The notes beneath the pieces were generated by a model. It ran no database searches, was not told the DNA's origin, and worked only from the letters and a program-made list of their open reading frames with translations. 38,474 nt of DNA, taken from IMG/VR virus record IMGVR_UViG_2778261226_000006; one strand, written 5' to 3'. This DNA is from a virus. Taxonomy: Duplodnaviria > Heunggongvirae > Uroviricota > Caudoviricetes. Below are positions 11,090-35,854 of this stretch, piece after piece; the first letter of the stretch is position 1; each line of letters starts with the position of its first letter. Made by a program: the position numbers and the translations under genes.

Positions 11090-11095
11090 CGCGTT

Positions 11096-16726: not shown

Positions 16727-16742
16727 TGGAGCACAAAACCTG

Positions 16743-17801: not shown

Positions 17802-17804
17802 TCC

Positions 17805-18455: not shown

Positions 18456-18550
18456 CAGAACGTGCCCCCGCGCACGGGCGGCACGGGGTGGCGAAAGGCA
18501 CTGCCACATCAAAACCCCGTCCACCGCCCTCTATTTCAGGAGAAAGCAGC

Positions 18551-19015
18551 ATGAAGTTTGTTGCGCCAGAACAGGCACCGGAACAGGCGGAAATCATCAG
18601 GAATACGCCGTTCTGGCCTGATGTGGACTTGTCGGAGTTTCGCAGTGTCATGCGCACTGACGGCACGGTGACGCAGCCGCGTTTAAAGCAGGTTGCGCTG
18701 TCGGCAATTTCGGAGGTTAACGCAGAGCTGTATGAGTTTCGCAGACGTCAGCAGATGCTGGGGTATGCGTCGCTGGCTGAGGTTCCGGCGGAACAGCTGG
18801 ACGGCAAAAGTGAGCGCATCCAGCACTATTTCAACGCGGTTTACTGCTGGGCATGCGCCATGCTCAACGAACGATACCAGGACTATGACGCCACGGCATC
18901 CGGTGTGAAGCGAGGCGAGGAACTGGCGGAATCCAGCGGTGATTTGTGGCGTGACGCCCGCTGGGCCATCAGCCGGGTGCAGGATGCGCCGCACTGCACA
19001 GTGGAGCTTATCTGA
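18551..19015 (+). CDS. L: Head completion/stabilisation protein (P2 gpL-like)
   Basis: ATG 18551 with SD CAGGAGAAAG; 154 aa; track ORF 18488 start is an extension; ATGA overlap with next gene. Confidence 0.75.
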   Translation: MKFVAPEQAPEQAEIIRNTPFWPDVDLSEFRSVMRTDGTVTQPRLKQVALSAISEVNAELYEFRRRQQMLGYASLAEVPAEQLDGKSERIQHYFNAVYCWACAMLNERYQDYDATASGVKRGEELAESSGDLWRDARWAISRVQDAPHCTVELI

Positions 19016-19218
19016 TGAAAGTGCGTGCGCATCAGTATGACACGGTGGACGCGCTTTGCTGGCGTCATTACGGGCGCACGCAGGGTGTCACGGAGCAGGT
19101 ACTGAAGGCAAATCCGGGGCTTGCCGAATATGGCCCCTTTTTACCTCACGGGCTGCAGGTGGAGCTGCCGGACATTCCGACCACCACCACCGTGCAGACC
19201 GTCCAGCTATGGGACTGA
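19015..19218 (+). CDS. X: Tail protein X (P2 gpX-like)
   Basis: 67 aa, the size of P2 X; position between L and lysis genes. Confidence 0.75.
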   Translation: MKVRAHQYDTVDALCWRHYGRTQGVTEQVLKANPGLAEYGPFLPHGLQVELPDIPTTTTVQTVQLWD

Positions 19219-19221
19219 ATT

Positions 19222-19437
19222 ATGACGCTTGAGCGAATCAGCGCCTTTATCACGTACTGCATCGCCGTTGTGCTGGCCTGGCTGGGTGATTTGTCCATCA
19301 AGGATGCCTCAACGCTGGGCGGCCTGATGATCGGTGTGCTGATGCTGGCTATCAACTGGTACTACAAACACAAAGCCTACCAGCTTCTGCGCGACGGGCA
19401 GATCTCGCGGGAGGACTATGAATCCATCAATCGTTAA
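19222..19437 (+). CDS. Holin, class II two-TM (pinholin-like)
   Basis: 71 aa with two hydrophobic segments (ISAFITYCIAVVLAWL, GGLMIGVLMLAINWYY) and charged C-terminus; immediately precedes the endolysin. Confidence 0.7.
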   Translation: MTLERISAFITYCIAVVLAWLGDLSIKDASTLGGLMIGVLMLAINWYYKHKAYQLLRDGQISREDYESINR

Positions 19438-19930
19438 ACGCTGCCTTGTCGGGGCCGTGCTGGCTATTGCTGCCACGCTGCCGGGTTTTCAGCAGCTTCA
19501 CACCTCCGTGGAAGGGCTGAAACTGATTGCCGATTACGAAGGTTGTCGTCTGCAGCCGTATCAGTGCAGCGCGGGTGTCTGGACCGACGGCATTGGTAAT
19601 ACGTCGGGCGTCATTCCCGGCAAAACCATTACGGAGCGACAGGCAGCAGAAGGGCTGATCTCCAACGTGCTGCGTGTGGAGCGGGCGCTGGAAAGGTGTG
19701 TGAAGCAACAGCCGCCGCAGAAGGTGTATGACGCTGCGGTGTCGTTTGCCTTCAACGTGGGTACGGGCAATGCCTGCAGTTCCACGCTGGTGAAATTGCT
19801 CAATCAGCGGCGCTGGGCGGATGCGTGCCGACAGTTGCCGCGCTGGGTGTATGTAAAAGGTGTGTTTAATCAGGGGCTGGATAACCGCCGTGCGCGGGAG
19901 ATGGCCTGGTGCTTACAGGGAGCAAACTGA
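19418..19930 (+). CDS. Endolysin, T4-lysozyme-like with N-terminal signal-anchor-release (SAR) domain
   Basis: 170 aa; N-terminal weakly hydrophobic Gly/Ala-rich segment KRCLVGAVLAIAATLPG followed by lysozyme-type catalytic region EG...D...T (ADYEGCRLQPYQCSAGVWTDGIGNT). Confidence 0.8.
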   Translation: MNPSIVKRCLVGAVLAIAATLPGFQQLHTSVEGLKLIADYEGCRLQPYQCSAGVWTDGIGNTSGVIPGKTITERQAAEGLISNVLRVERALERCVKQQPPQKVYDAAVSFAFNVGTGNACSSTLVKLLNQRRWADACRQLPRWVYVKGVFNQGLDNRRAREMAWCLQGAN

Positions 19931-19931
19931 A

Positions 19932-20309
19932 ATGAAAAAGAAAGTAATCAGCGGGCTGTTTCTGATGTTATGGATAGCGCTGTTAATCGCCGCAATGGTG
20001 TATCCGCAGGGGATTTTTCCGGTACTGGCAGCATCTGGTGTCTGGGTAGCCTGTGTGCTGACATGGGCAGTAATTCCGGTATCACTGGCTGCGTTAATTA
20101 AGAACGGCCCGCTCTGGCAGGAGTTGAGGGCATCTTTGCTGAAGACAATTACCCGAAAAGAAAACGTATTTATCAGCTGGATGATGCGATTGCTGATTGT
20201 CGTCAGTCTCGCCTGGACGGGGTGGGCTATTACCCTGGTCTTTTATCTACTGACCGTTATTGCCTTCTGGATCACCCGTAATCAGATGGCGCAACAGGTA
20301 GCAGCATGA
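19932..20309 (+). CDS. lysA: LysA-like multi-TM lysis regulator
   Basis: ATG 19932 (SD AGGGAG); about 125 aa with four hydrophobic segments; position after endolysin as P2 lysA. Confidence 0.6.
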   Translation: MKKKVISGLFLMLWIALLIAAMVYPQGIFPVLAASGVWVACVLTWAVIPVSLAALIKNGPLWQELRASLLKTITRKENVFISWMMRLLIVVSLAWTGWAITLVFYLLTVIAFWITRNQMAQQVAA

Positions 20310-20734
20310 ACCGGTTGCTGCTGGTTGTGCTGGCGTTATTACTGGCGGCGCTGGGCTGGCAGACGTGGCGGCTGGCTGATGCCAGCCAGACCATCAGCAC
20401 GCAGGCAGATGAGCTTCGGAGCAAAAGCCAGGCACTGGCAAAGAGCAACAGCCAGCTTATCAGCCTGTCCATTCTGACAGAAACCAACAACCGGGAGCAG
20501 GCGCGACTCTATGCCGACGCAGAACAGACCAGCGCACTACTGAGACAACGACAACACCGGATTGAGGAACTGAAACGTGAGAACGAGAATTTACGCCGCT
20601 GGGCTGATACTCCTTTGCCTGCTGACATTATCCGGCTGCGGGAACGCCCCACACTCACCGGAGGTGCAGCTTACCGTCAGTGGTTGTCCGCGAGTGACGC
20701 AGTGTCGGCTGGGGCAGGCAGCGCCTCGCACTAA
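20306..20734 (+). CDS. lysB: i-spanin (Rz / LysB-like)
   Basis: 142 aa; N-terminal TM (LLLVVLALLLAALGW) then coiled-coil-like periplasmic region; ATGA overlap with lysA. Confidence 0.75.
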   Translation: MNRLLLVVLALLLAALGWQTWRLADASQTISTQADELRSKSQALAKSNSQLISLSILTETNNREQARLYADAEQTSALLRQRQHRIEELKRENENLRRWADTPLPADIIRLRERPTLTGGAAYRQWLSASDAVSAGAGSASH

Positions 20735-20867
20735 CGGTGACCTGAACGCGTTGCTGGATGAAACGGAGGCCGCCTGGGCGGTCTGTGCAGACAAAGTGGA
20801 CATGATTATTGCGTGTCAGGAGCGAAACAGTGAACAAACCACAATCCCTGCGCCACGCCCTCAATAA
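20577..20867 (+). CDS. lysC: o-spanin lipoprotein (Rz1 / LysC-like), embedded out of frame in lysB
   Basis: GTG start inside lysB; signal peptide with lipobox LSGC (MRTRIYAAGLILLCLLTLSGC); Pro-rich C-terminus; extends past the lysB stop. Confidence 0.7.
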   Translation: MRTRIYAAGLILLCLLTLSGCGNAPHSPEVQLTVSGCPRVTQCRLGQAAPRTNGDLNALLDETEAAWAVCADKVDMIIACQERNSEQTTIPAPRPQ

Positions 20868-21261
20868 AGCGGTGCCTTATGTCCGCAATAACCCGGACAA
20901 ACTGCATCTGTTTGTGGATAACGGTTCGCTGGTTGCCACGGGGGCCAGCTCCATGTCGTGGGAGTACCGTTACACACTGAACGCGGTGATTGAGGATTTC
21001 AGCGGCGACCAGAATCTGCTGATGGCCCCGGTTTTGCTGTGGCTGAGGGATAACCAGCCCGATGCCATCAATAACCCGGCGTTACGGGAAAAGCTATTCA
21101 CCTTTGAGGTGGATATTCTGCGCAACGATGTCTGTGATATCAGCCTGAACCTGCAACTGACGGAACGTGTGCTGGTCAGCACTGACGGCAGTGTGTCGAG
21201 CGTTGAAGCTATAGCGGAACCTGATGCACCTGAAGAAATGTGGACGGTGAAACGTGGCTGA
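20830..21261 (+). CDS. R: Tail completion protein (P2 gpR-like)
   Basis: Track ORF 20809 (TTG); GTG 20830 with AGGAG SD gives 143 aa; position and size match P2 R. Confidence 0.65.
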   Translation: MNKPQSLRHALNKAVPYVRNNPDKLHLFVDNGSLVATGASSMSWEYRYTLNAVIEDFSGDQNLLMAPVLLWLRDNQPDAINNPALREKLFTFEVDILRNDVCDISLNLQLTERVLVSTDGSVSSVEAIAEPDAPEEMWTVKRG

Positions 21262-21700
21262 ACTGCAGAAGGTGGACGACTGGCTGAGTGCCTTGCTGGC
21301 GAATCTGGAACCAGCCTCGAGAAGCCGCATGATGCGCCAGCTGGCGCAGGAACTTCGCCGGACACAGCAGCAGAATATCAGGATGCAGCGCAACCCTGAC
21401 GGCAGCAGCTATGAACCGCGACGGGTAACAGCACGCAGTAAAAAAGGCCGTATCAAACGTCAGATGTTTGCAAAGCTGCGCACCACAAAATACCTGAAAA
21501 CTGCTGCCAGCACCGACTCTGCCAGCGTGCAGTTTGAAGGCAAGGTGCAGCGCATTGCCCGCGTTCACCATTACGGCCTGCGAGATCGCGTCAGTCGTAA
21601 GGGACCGGAGGTGCGTTACGCAGAGCGTCGCCTTCTGGGTGTAAATGATGATGTTGAGGCAATGACCCGCGACATGATTCTGCAATGGCTGGCGGGGTGA
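21254..21700 (+). CDS. S: Tail completion / virion morphogenesis protein (P2 gpS-like)
   Basis: 148 aa; GTG start overlapping the R stop; position matches P2 S. Confidence 0.7.
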   Translation: MAELQKVDDWLSALLANLEPASRSRMMRQLAQELRRTQQQNIRMQRNPDGSSYEPRRVTARSKKGRIKRQMFAKLRTTKYLKTAASTDSASVQFEGKVQRIARVHHYGLRDRVSRKGPEVRYAERRLLGVNDDVEAMTRDMILQWLAG

Positions 21701-21704
21701 TCTT

Positions 21705-21722
21705 TGTATCAGCACTGATACA
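21705..21722. promoter_or_regulatory. Ogr-type late-activator box (TGT-N12-ACA) upstream of V
   Basis: TGTatcagcactgatACA, spacer itself partly palindromic; about 50 bp upstream of V start, the expected place for the P2 PV late promoter. Confidence 0.5.
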
Positions 21723-21768
21723 AGTTGCAGCACTGCCGCCTTTCTTCCCCTGATGGCAACCTTTCCCT

Positions 21769-22347
21769 ATGAACGCACAATTAACCGAAATCATGCGCCT
21801 TATCACCAACCTGATCCGCACAGGGGTAGTCACCGAAGTGGACAGGGAAAACTGGCTTTGCCGGGTGAAAACGGGCGAGCTTGAAACCAACTGGATCAGC
21901 TGGCTGACGCTGCGTGCCGGGAATGCCCGTACATGGTGGCGACCATCGGAAGGTGAGCAGGTGGTGCTGCTGAGTCTGGGCGGCAATCTGGAAACCGCCT
22001 TTGCGCTGCCCGCTGTCTATTCGAATCAGTTCGCACCACCGTCGACGTCGGCGGACGCCTGCGTGACAGAACATCCTGACGGTGGCTGGTTTGAATACGA
22101 ACCCGCCACCGGGCGCTGGTATGTCAGGGGCATCAAATCAATGGTCATTGAGGCTGCTGACAACATCACCATGAAAACCAGTGAGTTTGTACTGGAGGCT
22201 GACCGCACGCGCATTAACAGCGAAGTGGTGATCAATGGTGGCGTTACCCAGGGCGGCGGAGCGATGAGTTCTAACGGGATCGTGGTTGATGCGCATCAGC
22301 ATACTGGCGTCCTGAAAGGCGGCGATACAACCGGAGGCCCGGTATGA
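21769..22347 (+). CDS. V: Baseplate spike/assembly protein (P2 gpV-like)
   Basis: 192 aa; first gene after the late promoter box; order V-W-J-I-H-G as in P2. Confidence 0.8.
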   Translation: MNAQLTEIMRLITNLIRTGVVTEVDRENWLCRVKTGELETNWISWLTLRAGNARTWWRPSEGEQVVLLSLGGNLETAFALPAVYSNQFAPPSTSADACVTEHPDGGWFEYEPATGRWYVRGIKSMVIEAADNITMKTSEFVLEADRTRINSEVVINGGVTQGGGAMSSNGIVVDAHQHTGVLKGGDTTGGPV

Positions 22348-22703
22348 CGCTTTATAGCGGGATGAACAATACCAGCGGCAAAGTCATTACTGATATTGAT
22401 CATCTGCGCCAGTCGGTGCGGGACATTCTGCTGACACCGCAGGGTAGCCGTATTGCCCGCCGGGAATATGGTTCCCTGCTGTCGGCACTGATAGATCAGC
22501 CACAAAATCCGGCATTACGCCTGCAGGTCATGTCGGCAGTGTATGTGGCGCTGAGTCGCTGGGAGCCACGGTTGACGCTGGATTCCATCACCATCAACAG
22601 CAATTTTGACGGTTCAATGGTGGTGGAGCTGACCGGGCGGCGGAATAACGGTGTGCCTGTGTCCCTTTCCGTATCAACAGGAGCAGAGAATGGCAGTGAT
22701 TGA
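22344..22703 (+). CDS. W: Baseplate wedge protein (P2 gpW-like)
   Basis: 119 aa; ATGA overlap with V; position and size match P2 W. Confidence 0.8.
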   Translation: MTLYSGMNNTSGKVITDIDHLRQSVRDILLTPQGSRIARREYGSLLSALIDQPQNPALRLQVMSAVYVALSRWEPRLTLDSITINSNFDGSMVVELTGRRNNGVPVSLSVSTGAENGSD

Positions 22704-23598
22704 CCTTTCGCAGTTGCCTGCACCGCAGATTGTGGATGTGCCGGACTTTGAGACGCTGCTTGCCGAACGCAAGGCAGAATTTGTGGCGCTTCATCCGAAA
22801 GATGAGCAGGAAGCAGTGATCCGCACGCTGGAACTGGAATCTGAACCCGCCACTAAATTGTTGCAGGAGAACGCTTACCGTGAGTTGCTTCTGCGCCAGC
22901 GCATTAACGAAGCCGCGCAGGCGGTGATGGTGGCTTACGCGATGGGCGGCGATCTTGACCAGCTCGCTGCCAACTACAACGTGACACGCCTGACGGTGAC
23001 GCCTGCTGATAATGATGCTGTGCCGCCCGTTGCAGCTGTGATGGAAAGCGATGAAGCGTTGCGCCTGCGTGTGCCTGCAGCCTTTGAAGGGCTTTCTGTT
23101 GCGGGGCCAACTGCAGCTTATGAATTTCATGCCCGAAGCGCCGACGGTCGGGTGGCGGATGCCAGTGCAACCAGCCCGGCACCTGCAGAGGTGGTGCTGA
23201 CTGTCCTTAGCCGCGAAGGCGATGGAACTGCAGAAAAAGACCTGCTGGACGTGGTGGAAAAAGCTCTGAACAGTGAGAACGTCCGCCCGGTGGCTGACCG
23301 TCTTACGGTTCGCAGCGCAGAAATCATCCCGTATCGCGTGGAAGCCACCATTTTTCTCTATCCGGGACCGGAAGTAGAGCCGGTAATGGCAGCGGCAAAA
23401 GCCAGTCTGCAGAAGTACATTGCCAGCCAGACGAGGCTTGGTCGGGATATTCGCCGTAGCGCCATCTTTGCTGCTCTGCATGTTGAGGGTGTTCAACGTG
23501 TGGAACTGGCTTCTCCGCTGGCGGATGTGGTCCTGAACAAAACACAGGCGGCATCATGTACGCAGTGGAGCGTAACCAACGGAGGAACGGATGAATAG
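22690..23598 (+). CDS. J: Baseplate protein J (P2 gpJ-like)
   Basis: ATG 22690 (SD AGGAGCAGAGA) gives 302 aa, the size I recall for P2 J; track ORF 22651 is a 5' extension. Confidence 0.8.
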   Translation: MAVIDLSQLPAPQIVDVPDFETLLAERKAEFVALHPKDEQEAVIRTLELESEPATKLLQENAYRELLLRQRINEAAQAVMVAYAMGGDLDQLAANYNVTRLTVTPADNDAVPPVAAVMESDEALRLRVPAAFEGLSVAGPTAAYEFHARSADGRVADASATSPAPAEVVLTVLSREGDGTAEKDLLDVVEKALNSENVRPVADRLTVRSAEIIPYRVEATIFLYPGPEVEPVMAAAKASLQKYIASQTRLGRDIRRSAIFAALHVEGVQRVELASPLADVVLNKTQAASCTQWSVTNGGTDE

Positions 23599-24196
23599 TC
23601 TGCTGCCACCGGGTTCAACTTCACTGGAGCGCCGACTGGCGCAAACCTGTAGCGGGATTTCTGATTTGCAGGTGCCGCTGCGTGACTTGTGGAATCCGGC
23701 TACCTGTCCGGTCAGCTTCCTGCCTTATCTCGCCTGGGCGTTCTCTGTGGATCGCTGGGATGAGGGCTGGACAGAAAGCGTCAAACGCCAGGTAGTGAAG
23801 GATGCTTTTTATATTCATCAGCATAAAGGAACCACCAGTGCCGTGCGGCGGGTGGTGGAACCGTTCGGATTCCTGATCCGCATTATTGAGTGGTGGCAGA
23901 CCGGAGAAACACCGGGCACGTTTCGCCTGGATATCGGCGTGCAGGACCAGGGCATCACTGAAGATACCTATCTGGAACTTGAGCGACTGATAAGCGATGC
24001 CAAACCATGTAGCCGCCACATGATCGGCATGTCCATCAATCTGCAGACCAGCGGCCCGCATTGGGTGGGAGCCGCCAGCTATCTTGGCGAAGAAATCACG
24101 ATCTATCCGTATATCAACGAAACGATTATTTCCGGTGGCACCGCGCATGAAGGCGGGGCGGTCCATGTTATTGACACAATGAGAGTGAATCCATGA
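23591..24196 (+). CDS. I: Baseplate / tail-fibre attachment protein (P2 gpI-like)
   Basis: 201 aa; overlaps J stop and H start; position matches P2 I. Confidence 0.75.
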   Translation: MNSLLPPGSTSLERRLAQTCSGISDLQVPLRDLWNPATCPVSFLPYLAWAFSVDRWDEGWTESVKRQVVKDAFYIHQHKGTTSAVRRVVEPFGFLIRIIEWWQTGETPGTFRLDIGVQDQGITEDTYLELERLISDAKPCSRHMIGMSINLQTSGPHWVGAASYLGEEITIYPYINETIISGGTAHEGGAVHVIDTMRVNP

Positions 24197-25713
24197 GCAC
24201 AAAATTTTATACCCTGCTGACGGATATTGGCGCGGCGAAACTTGCCAGCGCCGCCGCGCTCGGTGTGCCGCTAAAAATTACCCATATGGCGGTGGGCGAT
24301 GGCGGTGGAGTATTGCCAACGCCGGACGCAAAGCAGACGGCACTGGTAAATGAGAAACGCCGGGCTGCGCTGAATATGCTTTATATCGACCCGCAGAACA
24401 GCAGCCAGATTATTGCCGAACAGGTGATCCCTGAAAACGAGGGCGGTTGGTGGATACGTGAAGTGGGCTTGTTTGATGAGTCCGGGGCATTGATTGCCGT
24501 GGGCAACTGCCCGGAAAGCTATAAGCCGCAACTGGCTGAAGGTAGCGGGCGCACTCAGACCGTGCGCATGGTGCTGATTACCAGCAGCACGGACAATATC
24601 ACCCTGAAAATCGACCCTGCTGTAGTGCTGGCAACCCGCAAGTATGTGGATGACAAGGCACTGGAGCTGAAGGTGTACGCGGATAATCAGATGGCAAAAC
24701 ATCTTGCCGCACCGGACCCGCATTCACAGTACGCGCCAAAAGCCAGCCCAACATTTACCGGAACCCCCAAAGCGCCGACGCCAGCGGCGGGGAATAATAC
24801 CACGCAACTTGCGACCACCGCGTTTGTTCAGGCGGCACTGACAGCCCTGATTAATGGTGCGCCAGCCACGCTGGACACGCTGAAAGAAATAGCCGCAGCC
24901 ATTAACAATGATCCGAATTTCAGTACCACCATTAACAATGCGCTGGCACTAAAAGCACCGTTGTCGAGTCCGGCACTCACCGGAACGCCAACAGCCCCCA
25001 CGGCGGCGCAGTCGGTCAACAATACACAGATTGCCACTACGGCTTTTGTGAAATCGGCGATTGCAGGAATGGTGGGTTCTGCACCTGCTGCACTGGATAC
25101 ACTGAACGAACTGGCGGCGGCACTGGGGAATGATCCGAACTTTGCCACGACAATGCTTAATGCGCTGGCAGGTAAACAACCGCTGGACAATACGCTTACC
25201 AATTTGAGTGGAAAGGATGTAGCTGGTCTTCTCGCATACCTTGGTTTGGGAGAAGGCTCTGCATTACCGGTTGGTGTGCCTATTCCGTGGCCTTCAGCCA
25301 CTCCGCCAATGGGGTGGCTAAAATGTAACGGAGCAGTATTTTCTTCTGAAAAGTACCCAAATCTGGCAAAGGCTTACCCAACATTAAAATTACCAGATTT
25401 ACGCGGTGAATTTATTCGTGGCTGGGATGATGGGCGCGGGATTGACTCTGGTCGTAACTTATTATCTGCACAGAATGATGCAATTCAGAATATTGTTGGT
25501 TCTTTTGGGCGTACCCAGCTTTTTAGAGACGTACTTAGTTCAGGGCCATTTAGTCAACATGGGCAAGTATTATCTACAGGTCTAAAGGAAGCCGAAATTA
25601 TTGAGGGTTATGGCGCTTATAACTGGACATTCGACGCATCTCGCTCAGTTCGCACAGCATCTGAAACCCGCTCCCGTAACATCGCCTTTAATTATATTGT
25701 GAGGGCTGCATGA
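24193..25713 (+). CDS. H: Tail fibre protein (P2 gpH-like) with invertible C-terminal segment
   Basis: 506 aa; internal tandem ~72-aa repeats; C-terminal ~153 aa lies beyond the crossover site at 25229-25254 (encoding LGLGE) and is exchangeable by inversion. Confidence 0.85.
   Translation: MSTKFYTLLTDIGAAKLASAAALGVPLKITHMAVGDGGGVLPTPDAKQTALVNEKRRAALNMLYIDPQNSSQIIAEQVIPENEGGWWIREVGLFDESGALIAVGNCPESYKPQLAEGSGRTQTVRMVLITSSTDNITLKIDPAVVLATRKYVDDKALELKVYADNQMAKHLAAPDPHSQYAPKASPTFTGTPKAPTPAAGNNTTQLATTAFVQAALTALINGAPATLDTLKEIAAAINNDPNFSTTINNALALKAPLSSPALTGTPTAPTAAQSVNNTQIATTAFVKSAIAGMVGSAPAALDTLNELAAALGNDPNFATTMLNALAGKQPLDNTLTNLSGKDVAGLLAYLGLGEGSALPVGVPIPWPSATPPMGWLKCNGAVFSSEKYPNLAKAYPTLKLPDLRGEFIRGWDDGRGIDSGRNLLSAQNDAIQNIVGSFGRTQLFRDVLSSGPFSQHGQVLSTGLKEAEIIEGYGAYNWTFDASRSVRTASETRSRNIAFNYIVRAA
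24730..25190 (+). repeat. Tandem in-frame repeat (2 copies, about 225 bp each) inside tail fibre gene H
   Basis: Protein-level repeats ...GTPKAPTPAAGNNTTQLATTAFV...DTLKEIAAAINNDPNFSTTINNALALKAPL and ...GTPTAPTAAQSVNNTQIATTAFV...DTLNELAAALGNDPNFATTMLNALAGKQPL. Confidence 0.6.
25229..25254. other. Invertase crossover site, left (hix/gix/cix-like 26-bp site)
   Basis: TTCTCGCATACCTTGGTTTGGGAGAA: imperfect palindrome; right half-site TTGGTTTGGGAGAA is repeated in inverted orientation at 27174-27199; located inside H at the constant/variable boundary. Confidence 0.7.
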
Positions 25714-26315
25714 TAAGTAAAGCTGTATTAAATAATGAACTCATCGCCACAAAGGCCGGAGACATTACCGTTTATAATTATGATGGTGAAACACGGGAAT
25801 ATATTTCCACATCAACTGAATATCTTGCTGTGGGTGTCGGTATCCCGGCATGTTCCTGTTTAGATGCTCCTGGCTCATATAAAGCTGGTTATGCAATTTG
25901 CCGTTCTGCAGATTTTAACTCATGGGAATATGTGCCAGACCATCGCGGTGAAATCGTCTATAGCACCGAAACAGGAGAATCAAAAGAAATCACAGTTCCG
26001 GGTGATTACCCTGAAAATACAACCACTATCGCCCCGTTAACGTCATACGATAAATGGGATGGTGAGAAATGGGTGACCGACACTGAGGCACAGCATAACG
26101 CCGCAGTAGACGCGGCAGAAGTACGGCGCCAGTCACTGATTGATGCGGCTATGGCTTCCATTAGTCTGATTCAGCTGAAATTGCAGGCCGGGCGGAAGCT
26201 GACGCAGGCAGAAACAACCCGGCTTAACGCTGTGCTGGATTACATTGACGCGGTGACTGCAACAGATATCAGCACCGCGCCGGATGTCATCTGGCCTGAA
26301 CTACCGGAGGCGTAG
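25710..26315 (+). CDS. G: Tail fibre assembly protein (P2 gpG-like), currently expressed orientation
   Basis: 201 aa; ATGA overlap with H stop; inside invertible segment. Confidence 0.75.
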   Translation: MISKAVLNNELIATKAGDITVYNYDGETREYISTSTEYLAVGVGIPACSCLDAPGSYKAGYAICRSADFNSWEYVPDHRGEIVYSTETGESKEITVPGDYPENTTTIAPLTSYDKWDGEKWVTDTEAQHNAAVDAAEVRRQSLIDAAMASISLIQLKLQAGRKLTQAETTRLNAVLDYIDAVTATDISTAPDVIWPELPEA

Positions 26316-26730
26316 GCCATTCAATATCTGGAGCACTGGAGGTATCAACCAGTTCCAGTGCGTCCAGATAATCCAGCCATAAATTATATTGTTCCAGCTC
26401 GTCACCTTTCAGACGACCAATAGCAGCTTTGCCAGGCCACTGATGGGTATTGATGTAGGTATTGACTTCTGAAACCAAAGATATTTTTTTCATTTCAGCC
26501 GCCAGCACCTCATCCTCTTTTGAAGGCGGCGGGGAATTAATCCATATTGGCCGTCCTGAACTGTCAGCGCCAATTTCTTTCCCTTCTGGATGCAGCCCAA
26601 GAAATTGCTCATATGTTTCTCTGGTAATTTCAATAACATCATCAGGAAGCGTTCCCGCATCCTCATATTCTGGAAACAATTCTTGCAGATAAAAACTTTT
26701 ACTTCCGGGTGAAAAGAATACTGAGTTCAT
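26287..26730 (-). CDS. Alternative tail fibre assembly protein (silent orientation)
   Basis: 147 aa on minus strand, convergent with G; C-terminal region (LWLDYLDALELVDTSSAPDIEWP) resembles G C-terminus (NAVLDYIDAVTATDISTAPDVIWP); follows alternative fibre exon. Confidence 0.7.
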   Translation of the reverse strand: MNSVFFSPGSKSFYLQELFPEYEDAGTLPDDVIEITRETYEQFLGLHPEGKEIGADSSGRPIWINSPPPSKEDEVLAAEMKKISLVSEVNTYINTHQWPGKAAIGRLKGDELEQYNLWLDYLDALELVDTSSAPDIEWPTPPVVQAR

Positions 26731-26732
26731 TC

Positions 26733-27199
26733 TTACCGTCCAATGATTAACGCTGAGACGCTGGTATCTGAAGGAAAGGCTGCATTCAGTGGTTTGTCGA
26801 CTTTGAACACAATCGTATTATTCCCCCTGACAGCGGCAAAAGAACAAACCGCCGTCGCGTATGAACCTGTAATATTACTGGATACACCACCATAGGCTGT
26901 TGTTGATACCAGAGGGATAACGCCCAGCACCTTATTAGGAAATACAAAGGGCAATGTGGCTGTGGCAATATAAGACTTATTAGAACCTGTGATGGCATAA
27001 GCATTATCAGTCATTCCATTCATCGCCACTGGGCCGCTTATACTTACAGTAACCATCTGAATGATTAGCCCGTCAGGTTGACGAATCACAAAATTTCCAT
27101 TGCCACCAGTAGCCGTCCAGAAAGACATATCAGGGATTTGGTTTTCCCCGTTGCCCACATTCCGTTTTGCCGCTTCTCCCAAACCAACGTTTAAGAAAA
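26733..27199 (-). CDS. Alternative tail fibre C-terminal exon (promoterless; fused to H N-terminus after inversion)
   Basis: Minus-strand ORF 26733..27227; the reading frame through the right crossover site encodes VGLGEA, matching LGLGEG at the left site in H, so inversion creates an in-frame fusion. Confidence 0.65.
27174..27199. other. Invertase crossover site, right (inverted copy)
   Basis: TTCTCCCAAACCAACGTTTAAGAAAA; left half TTCTCCCAAACCAA is the reverse complement of the TTGGTTTGGGAGAA half-site at 25241-25254. Confidence 0.7.
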
Positions 27200-27254
27200 T
27201 GCAGAGGTAACAGCTAACTGGCATCATCTCCGGTTTTTATTCAGGGGGATGATC

Positions 27255-27821
27255 ATGCTTATTGGCTATGTACGCGTGTCAACAAATGACCAGAACACCG
27301 ATTTGCAACGTAATGCACTGAACTGCGCGGGATGTGAGCGGATTTTTGAGGACAAAATCAGTGGCACTAAGTCCGACAGACCGGGGCTGAAAAAACTACT
27401 CAGGACACTATCGGTAGGAGACACGCTGGTTGTCTGGAAGCTGGACAGGTTGGGGCGCAGTATGCGGCATCTTGTTACGCTGATAGAAGAGTTGCGCCAG
27501 CGTGGTGTGAATTTCAGAAGCCTGACTGACAGTATTGATACCAGTACCCCAATGGGCCGTTTCTTTTTTCATGTCATGGGTGCCCTGGCTGAAATGGAAC
27601 GCGAACTGATAGTTGAACGCACCAGGGCAGGGCTGGCTGCAGCTCGTGCCAAAGGCAGAGTAGGTGGACGCCGTCCTAAGTTGACCACCGAACAGTGGGC
27701 ACAGATTGGGCGTTTACTCGAGGCCGGAGAATCAAGACAGCGTATTGCACTGATTTTTGATGTAGGCGTTTCTACCATTTATAGAAAATTTCCGGCAAAT
27801 AAGATCAATGAATCCCCCTGA
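27255..27821 (+). CDS. Serine DNA invertase (Gin/Pin/Cin/Hin family)
   Basis: Begins MLIGYVRVSTNDQNTDLQRNAL with catalytic Ser in YVRVS; near-colinear by-eye match to Gin along its length including C-terminal HTH; ATG 27249 is an alternative start. Confidence 0.9.
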   Translation: MLIGYVRVSTNDQNTDLQRNALNCAGCERIFEDKISGTKSDRPGLKKLLRTLSVGDTLVVWKLDRLGRSMRHLVTLIEELRQRGVNFRSLTDSIDTSTPMGRFFFHVMGALAEMERELIVERTRAGLAAARAKGRVGGRRPKLTTEQWAQIGRLLEAGESRQRIALIFDVGVSTIYRKFPANKINESP

Positions 27822-27869
27822 ATCAGCATTATGTTGATTATCCCTGCAAGCAGACAAATACCGTTATTT

Positions 27870-27887
27870 TGTGTGAATAACGACACA
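27870..27887. promoter_or_regulatory. Ogr-type late-activator box (TGT-N12-ACA) upstream of FI
   Basis: TGTgtgaataacgacACA about 75 bp upstream of the FI start; expected position of the P2 PF late promoter. Confidence 0.5.
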
Positions 27888-27963
27888 ACTGCGCTTAGCT
27901 GTTTGTCAGGCACAATCACTTCAACATAGGGCGAAGCCTAATCCAATCAGGAGGTTCGCCACT

Positions 27964-29136
27964 ATGGCTCAGGATTACCACCACGGGGTGCGCGTTGTTG
28001 AAGTCAACGAAGGCACCCGATCTATTACCACGGTGAGCACCGCCATCGTGGGTATGGTCTGCACGGGCGATGATGCCGATGCAAAAATGTTTCCTCTTAA
28101 TAAACCCGTGCTGATCACTGATGTGCTGACTGCCAGCGGTAAAGCGGGTGAGTCCGGTACTCTGGCCCGTTCGCTGGATGCCATCGCTGACCAGGCAAAA
28201 CCCGTGACCATTGTTGTGCGTGTGCCGCAGGGTGAAACGGAAGACGAAACCACGACCAATATCATCGGCGCAGTGACTGCTGAAGGTAAAAAAACAGGTA
28301 TGAAAGCCCTGTTATCTGCCCAGTCACAGCTCGGCGTTAAACCGCGCATTCTCGGCGTGCCAGGCCACGACACCAAGGCGGTAGCTACTGAGTTGCTGAG
28401 CGTGGCGCAAAGCCTGCGTGGATTTGCTTACCTGTCAGCGTATGGCTGCAAGACAGTGCAGGAGGCGATCACTTACCGCGAAAACTTCAGCCAGCGCGAA
28501 GGGATGCTGATCTGGCCTGACTTTACTGGCTGGGACACGGTGCTGAATGCCGAAGCAACGGCATATGCCACCGCCCGTGCGCTTGGTCTGCGCGCCAAAA
28601 TTGACGAGCAGACCGGATGGCACAAAAGCCTGTCCAATGTGGGCGTGAACGGTGTCACCGGAATTTCTGCAGATGTGTTCTGGGATCTGCAGGACCCGGC
28701 AACCGATGCAGGTCTGCTGAACCAGAACGACGTCACCACGCTTGTGCGTAAAGACGGTTTCCGCTTCTGGGGGTCCCGCTGCCTGAGTGATGACCCGCTC
28801 TTTGCCTTCGAAAACTACACCCGCACGGCGCAGGTGCTGACGGACACGATGGCAGAAGCACACATGTGGGCGGTGGATAAACCGCTTAACCCGTCGCTGG
28901 CCCGCGACATTATCGAAGGTATCCGCGCCAAAATGCGCAGCCTGGTCAGTCAGGGCTATCTCATTGGTGGTGATTGCTGGCTGGATGAGTCGGTGAACGA
29001 CAAAGACACGCTGAAAGCCGGAAAACTCACCATCGACTACGACTACACGCCAGTGCCGCCACTTGAAAACCTGATGCTGCGTCAGCGCATCACCGATCAG
29101 TACCTGGTGAATTTCGCCAGCCAGGTCAGCGCGTAA
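27964..29136 (+). CDS. FI: Tail sheath protein (P2 gpFI-like)
   Basis: 390 aa; SD AGGAGG; followed by tube gene; size matches P2 FI. Confidence 0.85.
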
Positions 29137-29145
29137 GGGGACAAC

Positions 29146-29661
29146 ATGGCTTTACCACGCAAATTAAAACACCTGAACCTGTTTAACGACGGGAACAACT
29201 GGCAGGGGATCGTTGAGTCGCTGACGCTGCCGAAATTTACCCGCAAATATGAGAAGTATCGCGGCGGCGGAATGCCGGGTGCGGTGGATGTGGATCTGGG
29301 GCTTGATGACAGTGCGCTGGACACAGAATTTTCCATTGGTGGTACTGAATTGCTGCTGTTTAAACAGATGGGTAAAGCCACGGTGGATGGCATCCAGCTG
29401 CGCTTTACCGGCTCTATTCAGCGTGACGATACCGGGGAAGTGCAGGCCGTGGAGCTTGTCGTGCGTGGACGTCACAAAGAAGTGGATTCCGGCGAGTGGA
29501 AGACGGGCGAAAGCAACACCACCAAAGTGACCAGTACCAACAGCTACGCGAAGCTGACCATCAATGGTGAGGTGCTCTATGAAGTGGACCTTATCAACAT
29601 GGTGGAAATTGTGGACGGTGTGGACCTGATGGAAGCGCACCGCAACGCCCTCGGCCTCTGA
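29146..29661 (+). CDS. FII: Tail tube protein (P2 gpFII-like)
   Basis: 171 aa; immediately after sheath gene. Confidence 0.85.
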   Translation: MALPRKLKHLNLFNDGNNWQGIVESLTLPKFTRKYEKYRGGGMPGAVDVDLGLDDSALDTEFSIGGTELLLFKQMGKATVDGIQLRFTGSIQRDDTGEVQAVELVVRGRHKEVDSGEWKTGESNTTKVTSTNSYAKLTINGEVLYEVDLINMVEIVDGVDLMEAHRNALGL

Positions 29662-29715
29662 TATATCTGAACGGCGCGGGATACCGCGCCAGAACCCAAT
29701 TGACAGGACAGCAAA

Positions 29716-30018
29716 ATGAGCGATAAGCAGACTGAAAAGACCATTCAACTGGATACCCCCATCAAGCGCGGTAAAACAGAAATCACCGAAATTGTGCTGC
29801 GTAAACCGCAGTCCGGTGCGCTGCGCGGTACACGCCTGCAGGCCATTATGGATATGGATGTAAACGCGATGATGACCGTGATCCCCCGCATCTCCAGTCC
29901 GGCACTGACTGCACAGGAAATTGCAGAGATGGACCCGGCAGATCTCACTGCCATGTCGGTTGAGGTTGTCACTTTTTTGTTGAAGAAGTCGGTGCTTGCC
30001 GGTTTACCGACAGCCTGA
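29716..30018 (+). CDS. E: Tail assembly chaperone E (P2 gpE-like)
   Basis: 100 aa; precedes tape measure gene; contains slippery heptamer near its 3' end. Confidence 0.75.
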   Translation: MSDKQTEKTIQLDTPIKRGKTEITEIVLRKPQSGALRGTRLQAIMDMDVNAMMTVIPRISSPALTAQEIAEMDPADLTAMSVEVVTFLLKKSVLAGLPTA

Positions 30019-30152
30019 CGGTTGACGATCTGGTGGCAGATATCGCCACCATTTTTCACTGGCCGCCATCCGTTACTGACGTTATGCCGCTGACCGAAGT
30101 GCTGGAATGGCGGTATAAAGCGATTCAGAGAAGCGGGGCCAACGATGAGTGA
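29716..30152 (+). CDS. E+E' frameshift fusion product (tail assembly chaperone, -1 frameshift at 29973-29979)
   Basis: The -1 frame downstream of the slippery site contains no stop until 30150-30152, overlapping the tape measure start; analogous to the P2 E/E+E' and lambda G/GT arrangement. Confidence 0.55.
29973..29979 (+). other. Programmed -1 ribosomal frameshift slippery site T_TTT_TTG
   Basis: X_XXY_YYZ heptamer in the E zero frame (codons ACT TTT TTG); the -1 frame is open from here to TGA at 30150-30152. Confidence 0.6.
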
Positions 30153-33100
30153 TAACAACCTGCGTCTGCAGGTCATTCTTAATGCGGTTGACAAGCTCAC
30201 CCGCCCATTTCGATCTGCGCAGGCCAGTTCAAGAGAACTGGCTGCTGCTGTCAAAAAATCCCGCGATGCAATAAAGCAGCTTGATCAGGCCGGGAGCAGT
30301 CTGGACAGCTTCCGAAAGCTGCAGGCAGAAAATCAGAAATTAGGCGACAGGCTGAACTATGCCCGCCAGCGTGCAAATTTGCTCAGTCAGGAACTGGGAG
30401 CGATGGGGCCGCCTTCGCAACGTCAGGTTGTTGCTCTGGGCCGTCAACGGCTGGCTGTTCAGCGCCTGGAAGAACGCCAGAAAAAGCTGCAGCAGCAGAC
30501 GGCGCTTGTGCGTGCTGAACTGTACCGGGCGGGAATTTCTGCGAAAGACGATGCGGGAGCAACTGCCCGTTTAGCCCGTGAAACATCACGTTATAACCAG
30601 GAACTTTCGAAACAGGAGGCGCGGCTGAAGCGACTGGGGGAAGCTCAGCGCAGGATGAATGCAGCGCGTGCCAGTTATGCCCGTTCGCTGGAGGTGCGTG
30701 ATCGTATTGCAGGTGCCGGAGCCACCACCACGGCTGCAGGGCTGGCAATGGGCGCACCAGTGATGGCGGCAGTAAAAAGCTATACCAGCATGGAAGATGC
30801 CATGAAAGGTGTGGCAAAGCAGGTCAATGGCCTGCGTGACGATAATGGCAACCGCACTGCACGTTTTTATGAAATGCAGGATGCCATCAAGGCTGCCAGC
30901 GAACAGTTGCCGATGGAAAACGGTGCGGTGGATTTCGCTGCACTGGTTGAAGGTGGTGCGCGCATGAACGTCGCAAACCCTGACGACAGCTGGGAAGACC
31001 AGAAACGTGACCTGCTGGCCTTCGCCAGTACGGCAGCAAAGGCGGCAACAGCCTTTGAGCTGCCAGCGGATGAACTGTCAGAAAGTCTGGGGAAAATCGC
31101 CCAGCTCTACAAAATACCTACCCGCAATATTGAACAGCTCGGCGATGCGCTGAACTATCTGGATGATAACGCCATGTCGAAAGGGGCAGACATCATTGAT
31201 GTGATGCAACGTCTGGGCGGTGTGGCTGACCGTCTGGATTATCGTAAAGCGGCGGCGCTGGGTTCCACCTTCCTGACACTGGGCGCTGCGCCAGAGGTTG
31301 CAGCCAGTGCAGCAAACGCGATGGTGCGTGAATTGTCCATTGCCACCATGCAAAGCAAGAGTTTCTTTGAAGGGATGAATCTGCTGAAACTCAATCCTGA
31401 AGCGATTGAAAAGCAGATGACGAAGGATGCGATGGGAACCATCCAGCGCGTGCTGGAGAAGGTAAACGCGCTGCCGCAGGACAAGCGCCTGTCTGCCATG
31501 ACTATGTTGTTTGGTAAAGAGTTTGGCGATGATGCGGCGAAACTGGCAAACAACCTGCCGGAACTGCAGCGTCAGTTAAAACTGACAGCGGGCAATGATG
31601 CGCTCGGCTCCATGCAGAAAGAATCCGACATTAACAAGGATTCACTTTCTGCGCAGTGGTTGCTGGTCAAAACCGGAGCGCAGAACACCTTCAGCAGCCT
31701 GGGCGAAACGCTGCGCCAGCCGCTGATGGATATTCTGTACACGGTGAAAAGCGTCACGGGGGCGTTGCGTCGCTGGGTGGAAGCTAACCCGGAACTGACA
31801 GGCACACTGATGAAAGCATCGGCTGTTGTGGCTGCGGTTACCGTCGGCCTCGGCACCTTAGCGGTGGCGCTGGCTGCAGTGCTGGGGCCGCTGGCAGTGA
31901 TCCGTCTGGGATTCTCTGTGTTGGGTATCAAAACGTTATCTTCCGTTACGGCAGCAGTAACTCGAACCAGCAGCGCGTTGTCCTGGCTGGCTGGCGCACC
32001 ACTGGCACTGCTGCGACGCGGGCTTGCTTCATCGGGCAACGCCGCAGGTTTACTTACTGCGCCGTTGTCGTCTTTGCGCCGCACGGCATCACTGACGGGA
32101 AATGTCCTGAAAACTGTAGCAGGTGCGCCGGTTGCACTTTTGCGGTCTGGATTATCCGGTTTACGTGCTGTTGCTGTGATGTTTATGAATCCTCTGGCGA
32201 TGCTGCGCGTTGCCCTGTATGCCATATCTGGTCTGTTAGGTGCTCTGCTCAGTCCGATAGGTCTTGTGGTTACTGCACTGGCGGGCGTGGCGCTGGTTGT
32301 CTGGAAATACTGGCAACCCATCACCGCATTTCTCGGTGGCGTGGTGGAAGGATTCAAAGCGGCGGCAGGTCCCATCAGTGCAGCGTTCGAACCGCTTAAG
32401 CCCGTGTTCCAGTGGATTGGCGACAAAGTGCAGGCGCTGTGGGGCTGGTTTACTGATCTGCTGACGCCCGTTAAGTCGACCTCTGCCGAACTGCAGAGCG
32501 CAGCGGCAATGGGGCGGCGATTCGGGGAGGCACTGGCGGAAGGGCTGAATATGGTCATGCATCCGCTGGACTCCCTGAAATCCGGCGTTTCCTGGTTGCT
32601 GGAGAAGCTCGGCATTGTCAGTAAAGAGGCCGCAAAGGCAAAACTGCCGGAAAGCGTGACGCGTCAGCAACCTGCGACGGTGAATGCAGACGGTAAAGTG
32701 ATGATGCCATCGGGTGGTTTTCCATCATGGGGATATGGCTTTGCGGGGATGTATGACAGCGGCGGGTATATCCCGCGCGGGCAGTTTGGCATCGTCGGTG
32801 AAAACGGGCCGGAAATTGTTAACGGCCCGGCAAATGTGACCAGCCGGAGAAATACAGCTGCACTGGCTGCCGTTGTTGCCGGAATGATGGGCGTTGCTGC
32901 CGCGCCAGCAGAGCTTCCACCGTTGCACCCTTTGGCACTTCCCGCGAAAGGTGGAGAAGCAATTGTGAGTCGCGCAGCCACTGTGCCGCTCGTTCAACGG
33001 ATTGAGGCACCGACGCAGATCATCATTCAGACGCAGCCAGGACAAAGTGCGCAGGATATTGCGCGGGAGGTGGCACGCCAGCTTGATGAACGTGAACGCA

Positions 33101-35631: not shown

Positions 35632-35698
35632 TTTGCCGCCAAAGATAAGTAAAGTAGTTTCTAACTTATTGATTATGGAATGGAAGAATAGCAGGCAA

Positions 35699-35742: not shown

Positions 35743-35854
35743 CTCCACAAAATGGGGACATCAAAGAAAAGCAGTGGCACTAATTAAGACTGATGCCCTG
35801 CGGAAAAGTTCTGCGGTTGTGCAAAAAAATTTCATTTTCAGGGCAACTTCAGTT

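What the first reader, a model, noticed from the sequence alone, without database searches (positions are those of the whole stretch)
25229..27821. Gin/Pin-type invertase with a 1.97-kb invertible tail-fibre segment in a P2-like tail module
The 26-bp imperfect palindromes at 25229-25254 and 27174-27199 share the half-site TTGGTTTGGGAGAA in inverted orientation. The reading frames across both sites encode LGLGE, so inversion swaps the H C-terminus and its assembly chaperone for the alternative pair on the opposite strand. The adjacent invertase has the YVRVS catalytic serine context. This is a host-range switch of the Mu G-segment type, sitting at the P2 Z/fun accessory position.
Basis: partly seen in the sequence, partly recalled or inferred. 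Interest (0 to 1): 0.5.

Follow-up and report, generated by a model that had tools for sequence, protein, structure and literature searches.

The report
Invertible tail-fibre switch in P2-like prophage
This is an ordinary, well-known kind of phage host-range switch: a Pin/Gin-type enzyme flips a 1.95-kb DNA segment so that a P2-like prophage of E. coli makes one of two alternative tail-fibre tips, each with its own assembly chaperone.

Summary
Two 26-bp imperfect palindromes (25229-25254, 27174-27199) share an exact 14-bp core in inverted orientation, and these are the only two copies in the window. They bracket two opposed cassettes, each a tail-fibre C-terminus plus a chaperone. Next to them is an intact 188-aa serine invertase: 85% identical to e14 PinE, 77% to P1 Cin and 73% to Mu Gin.

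An in-silico flip at the central TT/AA dinucleotide keeps tail-fibre gene H in frame (506 aa becomes 500 aa).

Both orientations of this module occur in complete E. coli genomes: 29 native and 21 flipped. Two pig isolates are identical over 50 kb except that the segment is inverted, with breakpoints inside the core.

The right-hand site matches e14's right site at 25 of 26 positions. It is identical (26/26) to the site of a P2-like prophage locus in EPEC E2348/69 that was reported phase-variable by sequencing (PMC4272514).

The closest relative is e14 P/Pin, not Mu G/Gin. It is a two-state switch, not a shufflon.

Not shown here: inversion in this strain itself, Fis/enhancer dependence, and the host-range effect.

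Novelty: already known. Interest: low.

The parts
24193..25240 (+). Constant part of tail-fibre gene H (Hc), up to the crossover. Its N-terminus is the P2-type tail-collar fibre domain.
   Evidence: Pfam Phage_tail_fib covers residues 1-150, E = 6.7e-65. Residues 181-340 are 80% identical to P1 S residues 253-412.
25229..25254 (+). Left recombination site (pix/cix-like, 12+2+12) inside H: TTCTCGCATACC-TT-GGTTTGGGAGAA. The central TT is at 25241-25242.
   Evidence: It matches the e14 left site at 23/26, and its centre aligns with the annotated P1 cix crossover.
25243..25713 (+). Sv: the currently expressed variable C-terminus of H. It has a tail-collar domain and resembles e14 StfE.
   Evidence: Pfam Collar, E = 5.4e-15. 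phrog_523 tail collar fiber, E = 1.5e-73. 56% identical to e14 StfE.
25710..26315 (+). U: the tail-fibre assembly chaperone paired with Sv (TfaE-like). Its start overlaps the H stop codon (ATGA).
   Evidence: Pfam Caudo_TAP, E = 1.2e-31. 90.5% identical to e14 TfaE. Sequence.
26287..26730 (-). U': the alternative chaperone (TfaP-like), on the opposite strand. Its 3' end overlaps the 3' end of U by 29 nt.
   Evidence: Pfam Caudo_TAP, E = 4e-28. 56% identical to e14 TfaP.
26733..27185 (-). Sv': the alternative, currently unfused tail-fibre C-terminus. After inversion it is joined in frame to Hc.
   Evidence: The in-silico flip gives a 500-aa H'. phrog_12714, E = 1.2e-47, plus weaker tail-fibre PHROG families. 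Weak Pfam Gp53-like_C match, 22.1 bits against a cutoff of 24.9. In flipped relatives it is annotated as the C-terminus of the 'phage tail protein'.
27174..27199 (+). Right recombination site: TTCTCCCAAACC-AA-CGTTTAAGAAAA. The central AA is at 27186-27187.
   Evidence: It matches the e14 right site at 25/26 and is identical (26/26) to the right site of the phase-variable P2 locus of EPEC E2348/69 (PMC4272514 Table S1).
27255..27821 (+). Pin/Gin/Cin-type serine DNA invertase, 188 aa, with nucleophile Ser9 in YVRVS.
   Evidence: Pfam Resolvase, E = 6.6e-53, and HTH_7, E = 1.4e-15. PDB Gin 3UJ3, E = 1.6e-92. Identity 84.8% to PinE, 77.4% to Cin, 73.4% to Gin. Catalytic and Fis-contact residues are conserved.
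27273..27344 (+). Candidate recombinational enhancer: nt 19-90 of the invertase gene, homologous to the annotated Cin enhancer. Inferred, not shown.
   Evidence: The P1 record annotates the enhancer at cin nt 19-90. Over that stretch the window is 77.8% identical to cin and 87.5% to pinE, against 70.8% and 79.7% over nt 91-405. Synonymous-codon identity is 0.54 there against 0.40 elsewhere.

Best explanation
This is a two-state, site-specific DNA inversion switch of the Din (Gin/Cin/Pin/Hin) type, built into the tail-fibre gene of a 186/P2-family prophage of E. coli.

How it most likely works:
1. The 188-aa serine invertase (27255-27821) binds as dimers to the two 26-bp sites, one inside gene H and one just upstream of its own gene.
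2. It most likely assembles with a Fis-bound enhancer located in the 5' end of its own coding sequence.
3. It cuts both sites at the central TT/AA dinucleotide and rotates the strands, which inverts 25241-27187.

In the present orientation, the constant part of H is fused to a collar-domain C-terminus (Sv, StfE-like) and is followed by its chaperone U (TfaE-like). After inversion, the same constant part is fused in frame to a different C-terminus (Sv', gp53-like) and followed by chaperone U' (TfaP-like). A lysogen population therefore releases virions with two different receptor-binding tips, which is host-range bet-hedging.

Shown here: the anatomy, the in-frame fusion in both orientations, family membership of the enzyme and the sites, and natural occurrence of both orientations with breakpoints inside the core.

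Inferred: catalysis by this particular enzyme, Fis/enhancer dependence, and the host-range consequence.
For: Sites and core.

The central dinucleotide is identical in inverted orientation (TT/AA), as in the annotated P1 cix sites, and it aligns with their crossover point.

The enzyme has Resolvase and HTH_7 domains and is 73-85% identical to Gin, Cin and PinE. The catalytic residues are present, as are the residues reported to be specific to Fis/enhancer-dependent invertases: Hin K47, K/R48, K/R51, Q151, R154 and L155, per PMC3798978.

There are two opposed Sv+Tfa cassette pairs. H stays in frame after the flip, 506 aa becoming 500 aa.

The whole 3.8-kb module is found native in 29 complete E. 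coli genomes and flipped in 21, at 80% coverage or more. The best flipped match is 98.0% identical over the full length. A direct blastn against strain 2012C-4502 shows window 25654-27190 reversed between forward-matching flanks.

Strains 1504D004 and 1604D011 have no differences over 50 kb outside the block, and the block is inverted between them. The breakpoints lie within TTGGTTTGGGAGAAG, and the outer half-sites stay unchanged.

The same core is reported to recombine in vivo in e14 (PMC12529663; PMC4272514) and in a P2-like prophage of EPEC whose right site is 26/26 identical to the window's.
Against: The window is a single sequence, so no inversion was observed in this strain itself. The exact H' protein predicted from the flip is not in the protein collection, but this says little, because the native H allele is itself known from only one contig.

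The enhancer is only inferred. Its conservation cannot be cleanly separated from coding constraint.

No convincing sigma-70 promoter for the invertase was found by the simple scan.

The receptor specificities of the two tips are unknown.
Confidence: 0.9

Rival explanations
1. The switch mainly serves the lysogen as an anti-phage device, not the phage as a host-range switch. A short minus-strand ORF starts outside the segment (ATG 27227/27224, leader MMPVSCYLCIFLNVGLGE) and reads through the right site into whichever cassette faces it. This would give a free receptor-binding fragment that masks surface receptors, as reported for e14 StfE2.
For: The leader ORF is conserved with the start of e14 stfE: MMPFACYFFIFINVGLGE in e14 against MMPVSCYLCIFLNVGLGE here. 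PMC12529663 reports that e14 StfE2, made by P-segment inversion, blocks T2 adsorption and contains a gp53-like domain. The window's Sv' also has a weak gp53-like match.
Against: The prophage looks complete and its tail module is intact, so the virion role has a clear substrate.

The leader overlaps the invertase upstream region and the recombination site, so its conservation may be a DNA-level constraint.

The GGAG lies 0-3 nt from the ATGs, which is poor spacing for a ribosome-binding site. No promoter was detected for it. The e14 claim rests on one study of a defective prophage.
Confidence: 0.07
2. The module is an inactive relic. The sites and invertase are still recognisable, but the segment is frozen in this strain. 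The orientation differences among genomes would then reflect ancient events or flipping in trans by other Pin-family enzymes.
For: Only one orientation is seen in the window and in its two closest relatives, EA7 (99.6%) and C2 (99.5%). Pin-family enzymes are reported to act in trans on each other's sites (PMC12529663).
Against: The invertase ORF is intact with all catalytic residues. Both sites are intact and have matching central dinucleotides.

Orientation counts are nearly balanced at 29 to 21. A pair of isolates with no other difference over 50 kb differs by the flip, which argues for frequent, recent inversion in this module family.
Confidence: 0.03

Closest known systems
e14 P segment with PinE (E. 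coli K-12 defective prophage: stfP/tfaP/tfaE/stfE-pinE)
   Same: The gene order is the same: Sv, tfa, tfa', Sv', invertase. The 15-bp core is the same, with sites matching at 23/26 and 25/26. The invertase is 84.8% identical. TfaE is 90.5% identical, StfE 56% and TfaP 56%. The two tfa genes overlap at their 3' ends by 29 nt in both systems. Inversion is documented experimentally (PMC4272514, PMC12529663).
   Different: e14 is a defective lambdoid element with a truncated tail-fibre gene. Here the segment sits in a complete P2/186-type prophage with a full-length H. The Sv' cassette has no detectable similarity to e14 StfP at E < 1e-3.
Invertible tail-fibre loci of the P2-like prophages of EPEC E2348/69 (Goldberg et al. 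2014, PMC4272514)
   Same: These are in a P2-type tail module with the invertase immediately upstream of the sheath gene FI. The right site is 26/26 identical, and the left site shares the same 14-bp inner half. The invertases are 80-82% identical and the TfaE-like chaperone 89%. Phase variation was detected by sequencing of single-colony populations (Table S1). PCR confirmation is stated for e14 and for the four-variant P2 locus.
   Different: The simple EPEC locus lies in a truncated prophage that has lost the constant part of H. The other EPEC locus is a three-site shufflon with 215-bp repeats. The window has exactly two sites.
Mu G segment with Gin, and P1 C segment with Cin
   Same: The logic is the same: a constant Sc fused to alternative Sv or Sv', each with its own U or U' chaperone. 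The sites are 26 bp with a 2-bp crossover, and the enhancer lies inside the invertase gene. The invertase is 73% identical to Gin and 77% to Cin.
   Different: The segment is shorter: 1.95 kb against about 3 kb for G and about 4.2 kb for C. The cassettes are unrelated to Mu and P1 S/U. The sites match gix poorly: 7-8 mismatches to the consensus used here, against 2-6 for the window's own sites. The virion context is P2-type, not Mu or P1. In P1, cin lies on the other side of the segment relative to S.
Reference phage P2 (NC_001895), the G - fun(Z) - FI region
   Same: The flanking tail genes are the same and in the same order (V W J I H G ... FI FII E E' T U D). The insertion point lies between the tail-fibre chaperone gene and the pF late promoter.
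   Different: P2 has a non-invertible H/G pair and carries fun(Z) at this position. It has no invertase and no second cassette.

Membership tests
Fis/enhancer-dependent DNA invertases (Din group: Gin, Cin, Pin, Hin; small serine recombinases) | N-terminal resolvase-type catalytic domain with a serine nucleophile, plus a C-terminal HTH_7 DNA-binding domain, about 190 aa in all | tested here: met
   Pfam Resolvase, E = 6.6e-53, and HTH_7, E = 1.4e-15. Y5, R7, S9, R42, D64, R65 and R68 are identical to Gin, Cin and PinE. PDB Gin, E = 1.6e-92.
Fis/enhancer-dependent DNA invertases (Din group: Gin, Cin, Pin, Hin; small serine recombinases) | Residues reported as uniquely conserved in enhancer-dependent invertases: Hin K47, K/R48, K/R51, Q151, R154, L155 (PMC3798978) | tested here: met
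   K46, K47, R50, Q150, R153 and L154 are present (numbering is one lower because the nucleophile here is S9). They match Gin, Cin and PinE, allowing K/R at the two positions where the paper does (paper read).
Fis/enhancer-dependent DNA invertases (Din group: Gin, Cin, Pin, Hin; small serine recombinases) | Two 26-bp imperfectly palindromic recombination sites in inverted orientation, with the same 2-bp crossover dinucleotide | tested here: met
   The sites are at 25229-25254 and 27174-27199, with centre TT and AA. They align with the annotated cix sites and crossover of P1 and with the e14 sites.
Fis/enhancer-dependent DNA invertases (Din group: Gin, Cin, Pin, Hin; small serine recombinases) | A cis recombinational enhancer with two Fis sites, located in the 5' part of the invertase gene | tested here: inconclusive
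   The stretch homologous to the annotated Cin enhancer (gene nt 19-90) is more conserved than the rest of the gene. Synonymous-codon identity is 0.54 there against 0.40 elsewhere. Two G-N13-C 15-mers at nt 22-36 and 71-85 keep their positions in gin and pinE, and the second also in cin. There are only four sequences, the stretch also carries coding constraint, and no binding data exist.
Fis/enhancer-dependent DNA invertases (Din group: Gin, Cin, Pin, Hin; small serine recombinases) | Inversion depends on host Fis and on DNA supercoiling | not testable with these tools
   This needs an in vitro inversion assay or a fis mutant.
Invertible tail-fibre host-range segments (Mu G / P1 C / e14 P type) | The crossover site lies inside the tail-fibre ORF and separates a constant N-terminal part from alternative C-termini. 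The fusion is in frame in both orientations. | tested here: met
   Native H is 506 aa and flipped H' is 500 aa, both open to a stop codon. Relatives in the flipped state are annotated with a 1503-nt H.
Invertible tail-fibre host-range segments (Mu G / P1 C / e14 P type) | Each alternative C-terminus is followed by its own tail-fibre assembly chaperone, and the two pairs face each other | tested here: met
   Both chaperones match Caudo_TAP: 25710-26315 on the + strand and 26287-26730 on the - strand.
Invertible tail-fibre host-range segments (Mu G / P1 C / e14 P type) | Both orientations actually occur | tested here: met
   Met for close relatives of the module: 29 native against 21 flipped genomes, a near-isogenic pair and a reversed blastn block. 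It cannot be tested for the source strain itself from one sequence.
Invertible tail-fibre host-range segments (Mu G / P1 C / e14 P type) | The two orientations give different host ranges | not testable with these tools
   This needs plating of phage from orientation-locked lysogens.
P2-like (Peduoviridae) tail module | Gene order V-W-J-I-H-G ... FI-FII-E-E'-T-U-D-ogr, with a P2-type H N-terminus | tested here: met
   The window is 96-99% identical to the annotated EA7 prophage over most of its length (92% across the portal gene). Pfam Phage_tail_fib, E = 6.7e-65. Order of the reference P2 genes from G to D.
Shufflon / multiple-inversion systems (p15B Min, EPEC P2 four-variant locus) | Three or more recombination sites, giving more than two arrangements | tested here: not met
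   There are only two copies of the core in the whole window, allowing up to 2 mismatches. No further 26-bp site with 8 or fewer mismatches to the consensus was found in 23-29 kb.

The most novel reading that the evidence does not exclude
The cassette facing the invertase is not silent. It would be translated from the conserved short leader ORF that starts outside the segment (27227/27224, minus strand), giving the lysogen a free receptor-binding fragment that changes with orientation and blocks adsorption of other phages, as claimed for e14 StfE2. The same flip would then switch virion host range and lysogen superinfection immunity together, in a fully functional P2-like prophage.
Probability: 0.07. 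Interest if true: 0.5.

Novelty: already known. Interest (0 to 1): 0.1.

Why it matters
It matters little as a discovery. This is a textbook phase-variation mechanism, and the same arrangement in P2-like prophages has already been reported phase-variable experimentally.

It has three practical uses:
1. Annotation. RefSeq labels the unfused cassette as 'hypothetical protein' and the enzyme as 'recombinase family protein', and the orientation in an assembly is an arbitrary snapshot.
2. Comparative genomics. The flip and the cassette exchange produce spurious 'differences' between clonal isolates.
3. Phage host-range prediction. Each such prophage encodes two receptor-binding tips, not one.

Tried and rejected
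- An exact-sequence look-up of the predicted flipped H' (500 aa) found nothing. The native H allele is on only one contig, so the test had no power.
- The sigma-70 and terminator scan around the segment gave chance-level hits, and none sits convincingly upstream of the invertase.
- The synonymous-site test for the enhancer showed only a modest excess with four sequences, so I report it as inconclusive. The candidate Fis cores are 49 bp apart centre to centre by my count. My recollection of the published spacing is 48 bp, so I do not claim these are the Fis sites.
- Shufflon reading rejected: there are only two sites.
- 'Mu G-type' as the nearest relative rejected in favour of e14 P/Pin, on sites, enzyme and cassettes.
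- RecA-type inversion between the 15-bp repeats, or an assembly artefact, was considered. The breakpoints coincide with the invertase core, the outer half-sites stay in place, and the same sites are reported phase-variable experimentally. I give these readings negligible weight.
- An Rfam scan of the window found nothing relevant to the switch.
- The 16 mismatches inside the flipped block of the sister pair could not be explained with the tools available.


Full report
**1. Observation**

The region was read directly. The longest inverted repeat in 23-29 kb has arms at 25229-25255 and 27173-27199 (27 nt, 81% complementary).

Written as 12+2+12, the sites are:
- Left: TTCTCGCATACC-TT-GGTTTGGGAGAA
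- Right: TTCTCCCAAACC-AA-CGTTTAAGAAAA

Each site is an imperfect palindrome: 20/26 and 16/26 positions match its own reverse complement. The left site matches the reverse complement of the right site at 21/26.

The 14-mer TTGGTTTGGGAGAA occurs exactly twice in the 38.5-kb window, once per strand, even with up to 2 mismatches allowed. By chance 0.29 matches are expected, and none of 100 shuffles gave two.

Two small corrections apply. The right site encodes VGLGE on the minus strand, not LGLGE. The exchanged block is 1947 bp (25241-27187), while 1971 bp is the outer-to-outer span.

**2. Anatomy**

- Gene H (24193-25713, 506 aa) has the P2-type tail-collar fibre N-terminus (E = 6.7e-65) and a Collar domain in the part downstream of the left site.
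- A Caudo_TAP chaperone (25710-26315) overlaps the H stop codon.
- On the opposite strand lie a second Caudo_TAP chaperone (26287-26730) and a 150-aa tail-fibre C-terminus (26733-27185). The latter matches PHROG tail-fibre families and, weakly, Gp53-like_C.
- The invertase (27255-27821, 188 aa) lies 55 bp beyond the right site.
- After the invertase come FI, FII, E, E', T, U, D and ogr.

**3. Does a flip make sense?**

Inverting 25241-27187 in silico leaves H open. It yields a 500-aa protein whose first residues, through LAYLGLGE, are unchanged and whose tail is the Sv' cassette. The stop codon of H' is followed three bases later by the start of U' (flipped sequence).

The central dinucleotides (TT on the left, AA on the right) are the same dinucleotide in inverted orientation. 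Strand exchange by a serine invertase needs this. The annotated cix sites of P1 and the sites of Mu and e14 follow the same rule. The P1 record places the crossover in the middle of that dinucleotide, and this aligns with 25241-25242.

**4. The enzyme**

Pfam gives Resolvase (E = 6.6e-53) plus HTH_7 (E = 1.4e-15). The best solved structure is Mu Gin (3UJ3, E = 1.6e-92, residues 1-184). Global identity is 84.8% to e14 PinE, 77.4% to P1 Cin and 73.4% to Mu Gin.

The nucleophile Ser9 and the conserved Arg and Asp residues are present. So are the positions that McLean et al. (PMC3798978) report as uniquely conserved in Fis/enhancer-dependent invertases.

The P1 record annotates the Cin enhancer at nt 19-90 of cin. 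The homologous stretch of the window gene is more conserved than the rest of the gene at the DNA level and at synonymous sites. With four sequences and overlapping coding constraint, I call this inconclusive.

**5. Natural evidence for inversion**

- Junction search. A 600-nt query spanning the flipped left junction is matched at 80% coverage or more in 24 complete E. coli genomes, 23 of them over essentially its full length, with up to 99.3% identity.
- Whole module. The 3.8-kb module is covered at 80% or more in 29 genomes in the native form and in 21 in the flipped form. The best flipped match is 98.0% identical over 100% of the query.
- Direct alignment. Against strain 2012C-4502, window 13982-25255 and 27173-32209 align forward, while 25654-27190 aligns reversed.
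- Near-isogenic pair. Two pig isolates from one site, 1504D004 and 1604D011, both have genomes of 5,198,112 bp. They show no differences over 50 kb outside the block, and the block is inverted between them. The largest block that re-inverts cleanly begins exactly at the central TT and ends at the central AA. The outer half-sites are unchanged in both genomes.

**6. Link to experiments**

Goldberg et al. (PMC4272514) detected co-existing orientations in single-colony cultures for e14 and for two P2-like prophages of EPEC E2348/69. PCR confirmation is stated for e14 and for the four-variant P2 locus. Their Table S1 gives coordinates and repeats.

I fetched both EPEC loci. The simple one has the same gene order as the window. 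Its right site is identical to the window's at 26/26, it has the same inner half on the left, and its invertase is 80% identical.

For e14, PMC12529663 reports the repeats TTGGTTTGGGAGAAGG / CCTTCTCCCAAACCAA, which contain the same core as here. It also reports inversion by PinE, PinQ and PinR.

**7. Nearest relative**

The window's sites match the e14 sites at 23/26 and 25/26. The gix sites are much more distant. The expressed cassette is StfE/TfaE-like (56% and 90.5% identity) and U' is TfaP-like (56%). No Mu or P1 cassette matches. The system is therefore best described as a Pin-type P segment in a complete P2/186-family prophage, not as a Mu G segment.

**8. What is not shown**

Not shown: inversion in this very strain, dependence on Fis and the enhancer, transcription of the invertase (no clear promoter), and the receptors of the two tips.

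**9. Alternative reading**

A short minus-strand ORF starts outside the segment and reads through the right site. Its leader is conserved with the start of e14 stfE. A 2025 paper claims that the e14 product formed this way blocks phage adsorption. The leader overlaps the site and the invertase upstream region, its ribosome-binding spacing is poor, and the prophage is otherwise complete. I give this reading a low probability.

**10. Verdict**

The kind of system is already known and has been reported phase-variable experimentally in this very phage context. Interest is low.

Noticed in passing
window 8965-12229 (+): The cargo between replication gene A and the portal gene is a type IX retron by PADLOC models: HEPN_IX 9826-10350 (E = 1.4e-52), HTH_IX 10337-11080 (E = 1.5e-61) and RT_IX 11252-12229 (E = 4.2e-129; Pfam RVT_1). 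A further 203-aa ORF (8965-9576) matches nothing. Rfam gave no msr/msd hit at the gathering threshold. Relatives carry other cargo at this spot: a retron Ec67 RT/endonuclease, a TIR protein, or ParA plus SIR2.
   Followed up: partly
L009/L010 (NZ_CP149565.1 / NZ_CP149553.1) 2006338-2007223: The two otherwise identical sister genomes differ at 16 positions inside the flipped block. All 16 lie within about 900 bp covering the 3' end of U, all of U' and Sv'. One genome carries the window-type base at 13 of the 16. This may be gene conversion from a paralogous cassette or a polishing artefact. It remains unresolved.
   Followed up: partly
window 27200-27227 (-): A short leader ORF (MMPVSCYLCIFLNVGLGE) starts outside the invertible segment and reads through the right site into the unfused cassette. 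It is conserved with the start of e14 stfE, and part of it (ATGCCA, MP) is conserved in Mu. RefSeq annotates the resulting ORF as 'hypothetical protein' or 'phage tail protein'.
   Followed up: partly
window 35697-35775 (-): The host sRNA gene rybB (Rfam RF00110, 105 bits) lies just beyond the right end of the prophage, next to ybjL (35855-37540). The same chromosomal neighbourhood flanks the prophage in strain EA7.
   Followed up: no
window 27871-27888: Between the invertase stop codon and FI there is a TGT-N12-ACA dyad (TGTGTGAATAACGACACA). From my own knowledge, this is the form of the Ogr/Delta activator site of P2 late promoters. It would mean pF is retained downstream of the inserted invertase (sequence; P2 pF annotation).
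   Followed up: no
window 21700-21769: Relatives carry an extra gene between the virion morphogenesis gene (S-like) and V: an 816-nt minus-strand hypothetical gene in EA7, and a TIR-domain gene in 1504D004. The window has only a 68-bp gap there. This looks like a second cargo hotspot in this prophage family.
   Followed up: no
window 24733-25212 (H residues 181-340): The constant part of H is 80% identical over 160 aa to P1 tail-fibre S residues 253-412. The variable cassettes are unrelated to those of P1, which illustrates the mosaic exchange of tail-fibre modules between unrelated phages.
   Followed up: no
window 27239-27250 and 27812-27823: A perfect 12-bp inverted repeat (ATTCAGGGGGAT / ATCCCCCTGAAT) brackets the invertase gene almost exactly, from just upstream of the start to across the stop codon (I22). 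By my own estimate, about one perfect 12-mer pair is expected by chance in 6 kb, so it may mean nothing.
   Followed up: no
phage records H3-H15 (Klebsiella phages Kp48xx, KP12): The same module, at about 93% identity over 76% of the query, occurs in Klebsiella pneumoniae prophages. The invertase's 90% cluster has 2365 members and includes Klebsiella entries. The switch family therefore crosses genera, with cassette replacement.
   Followed up: no
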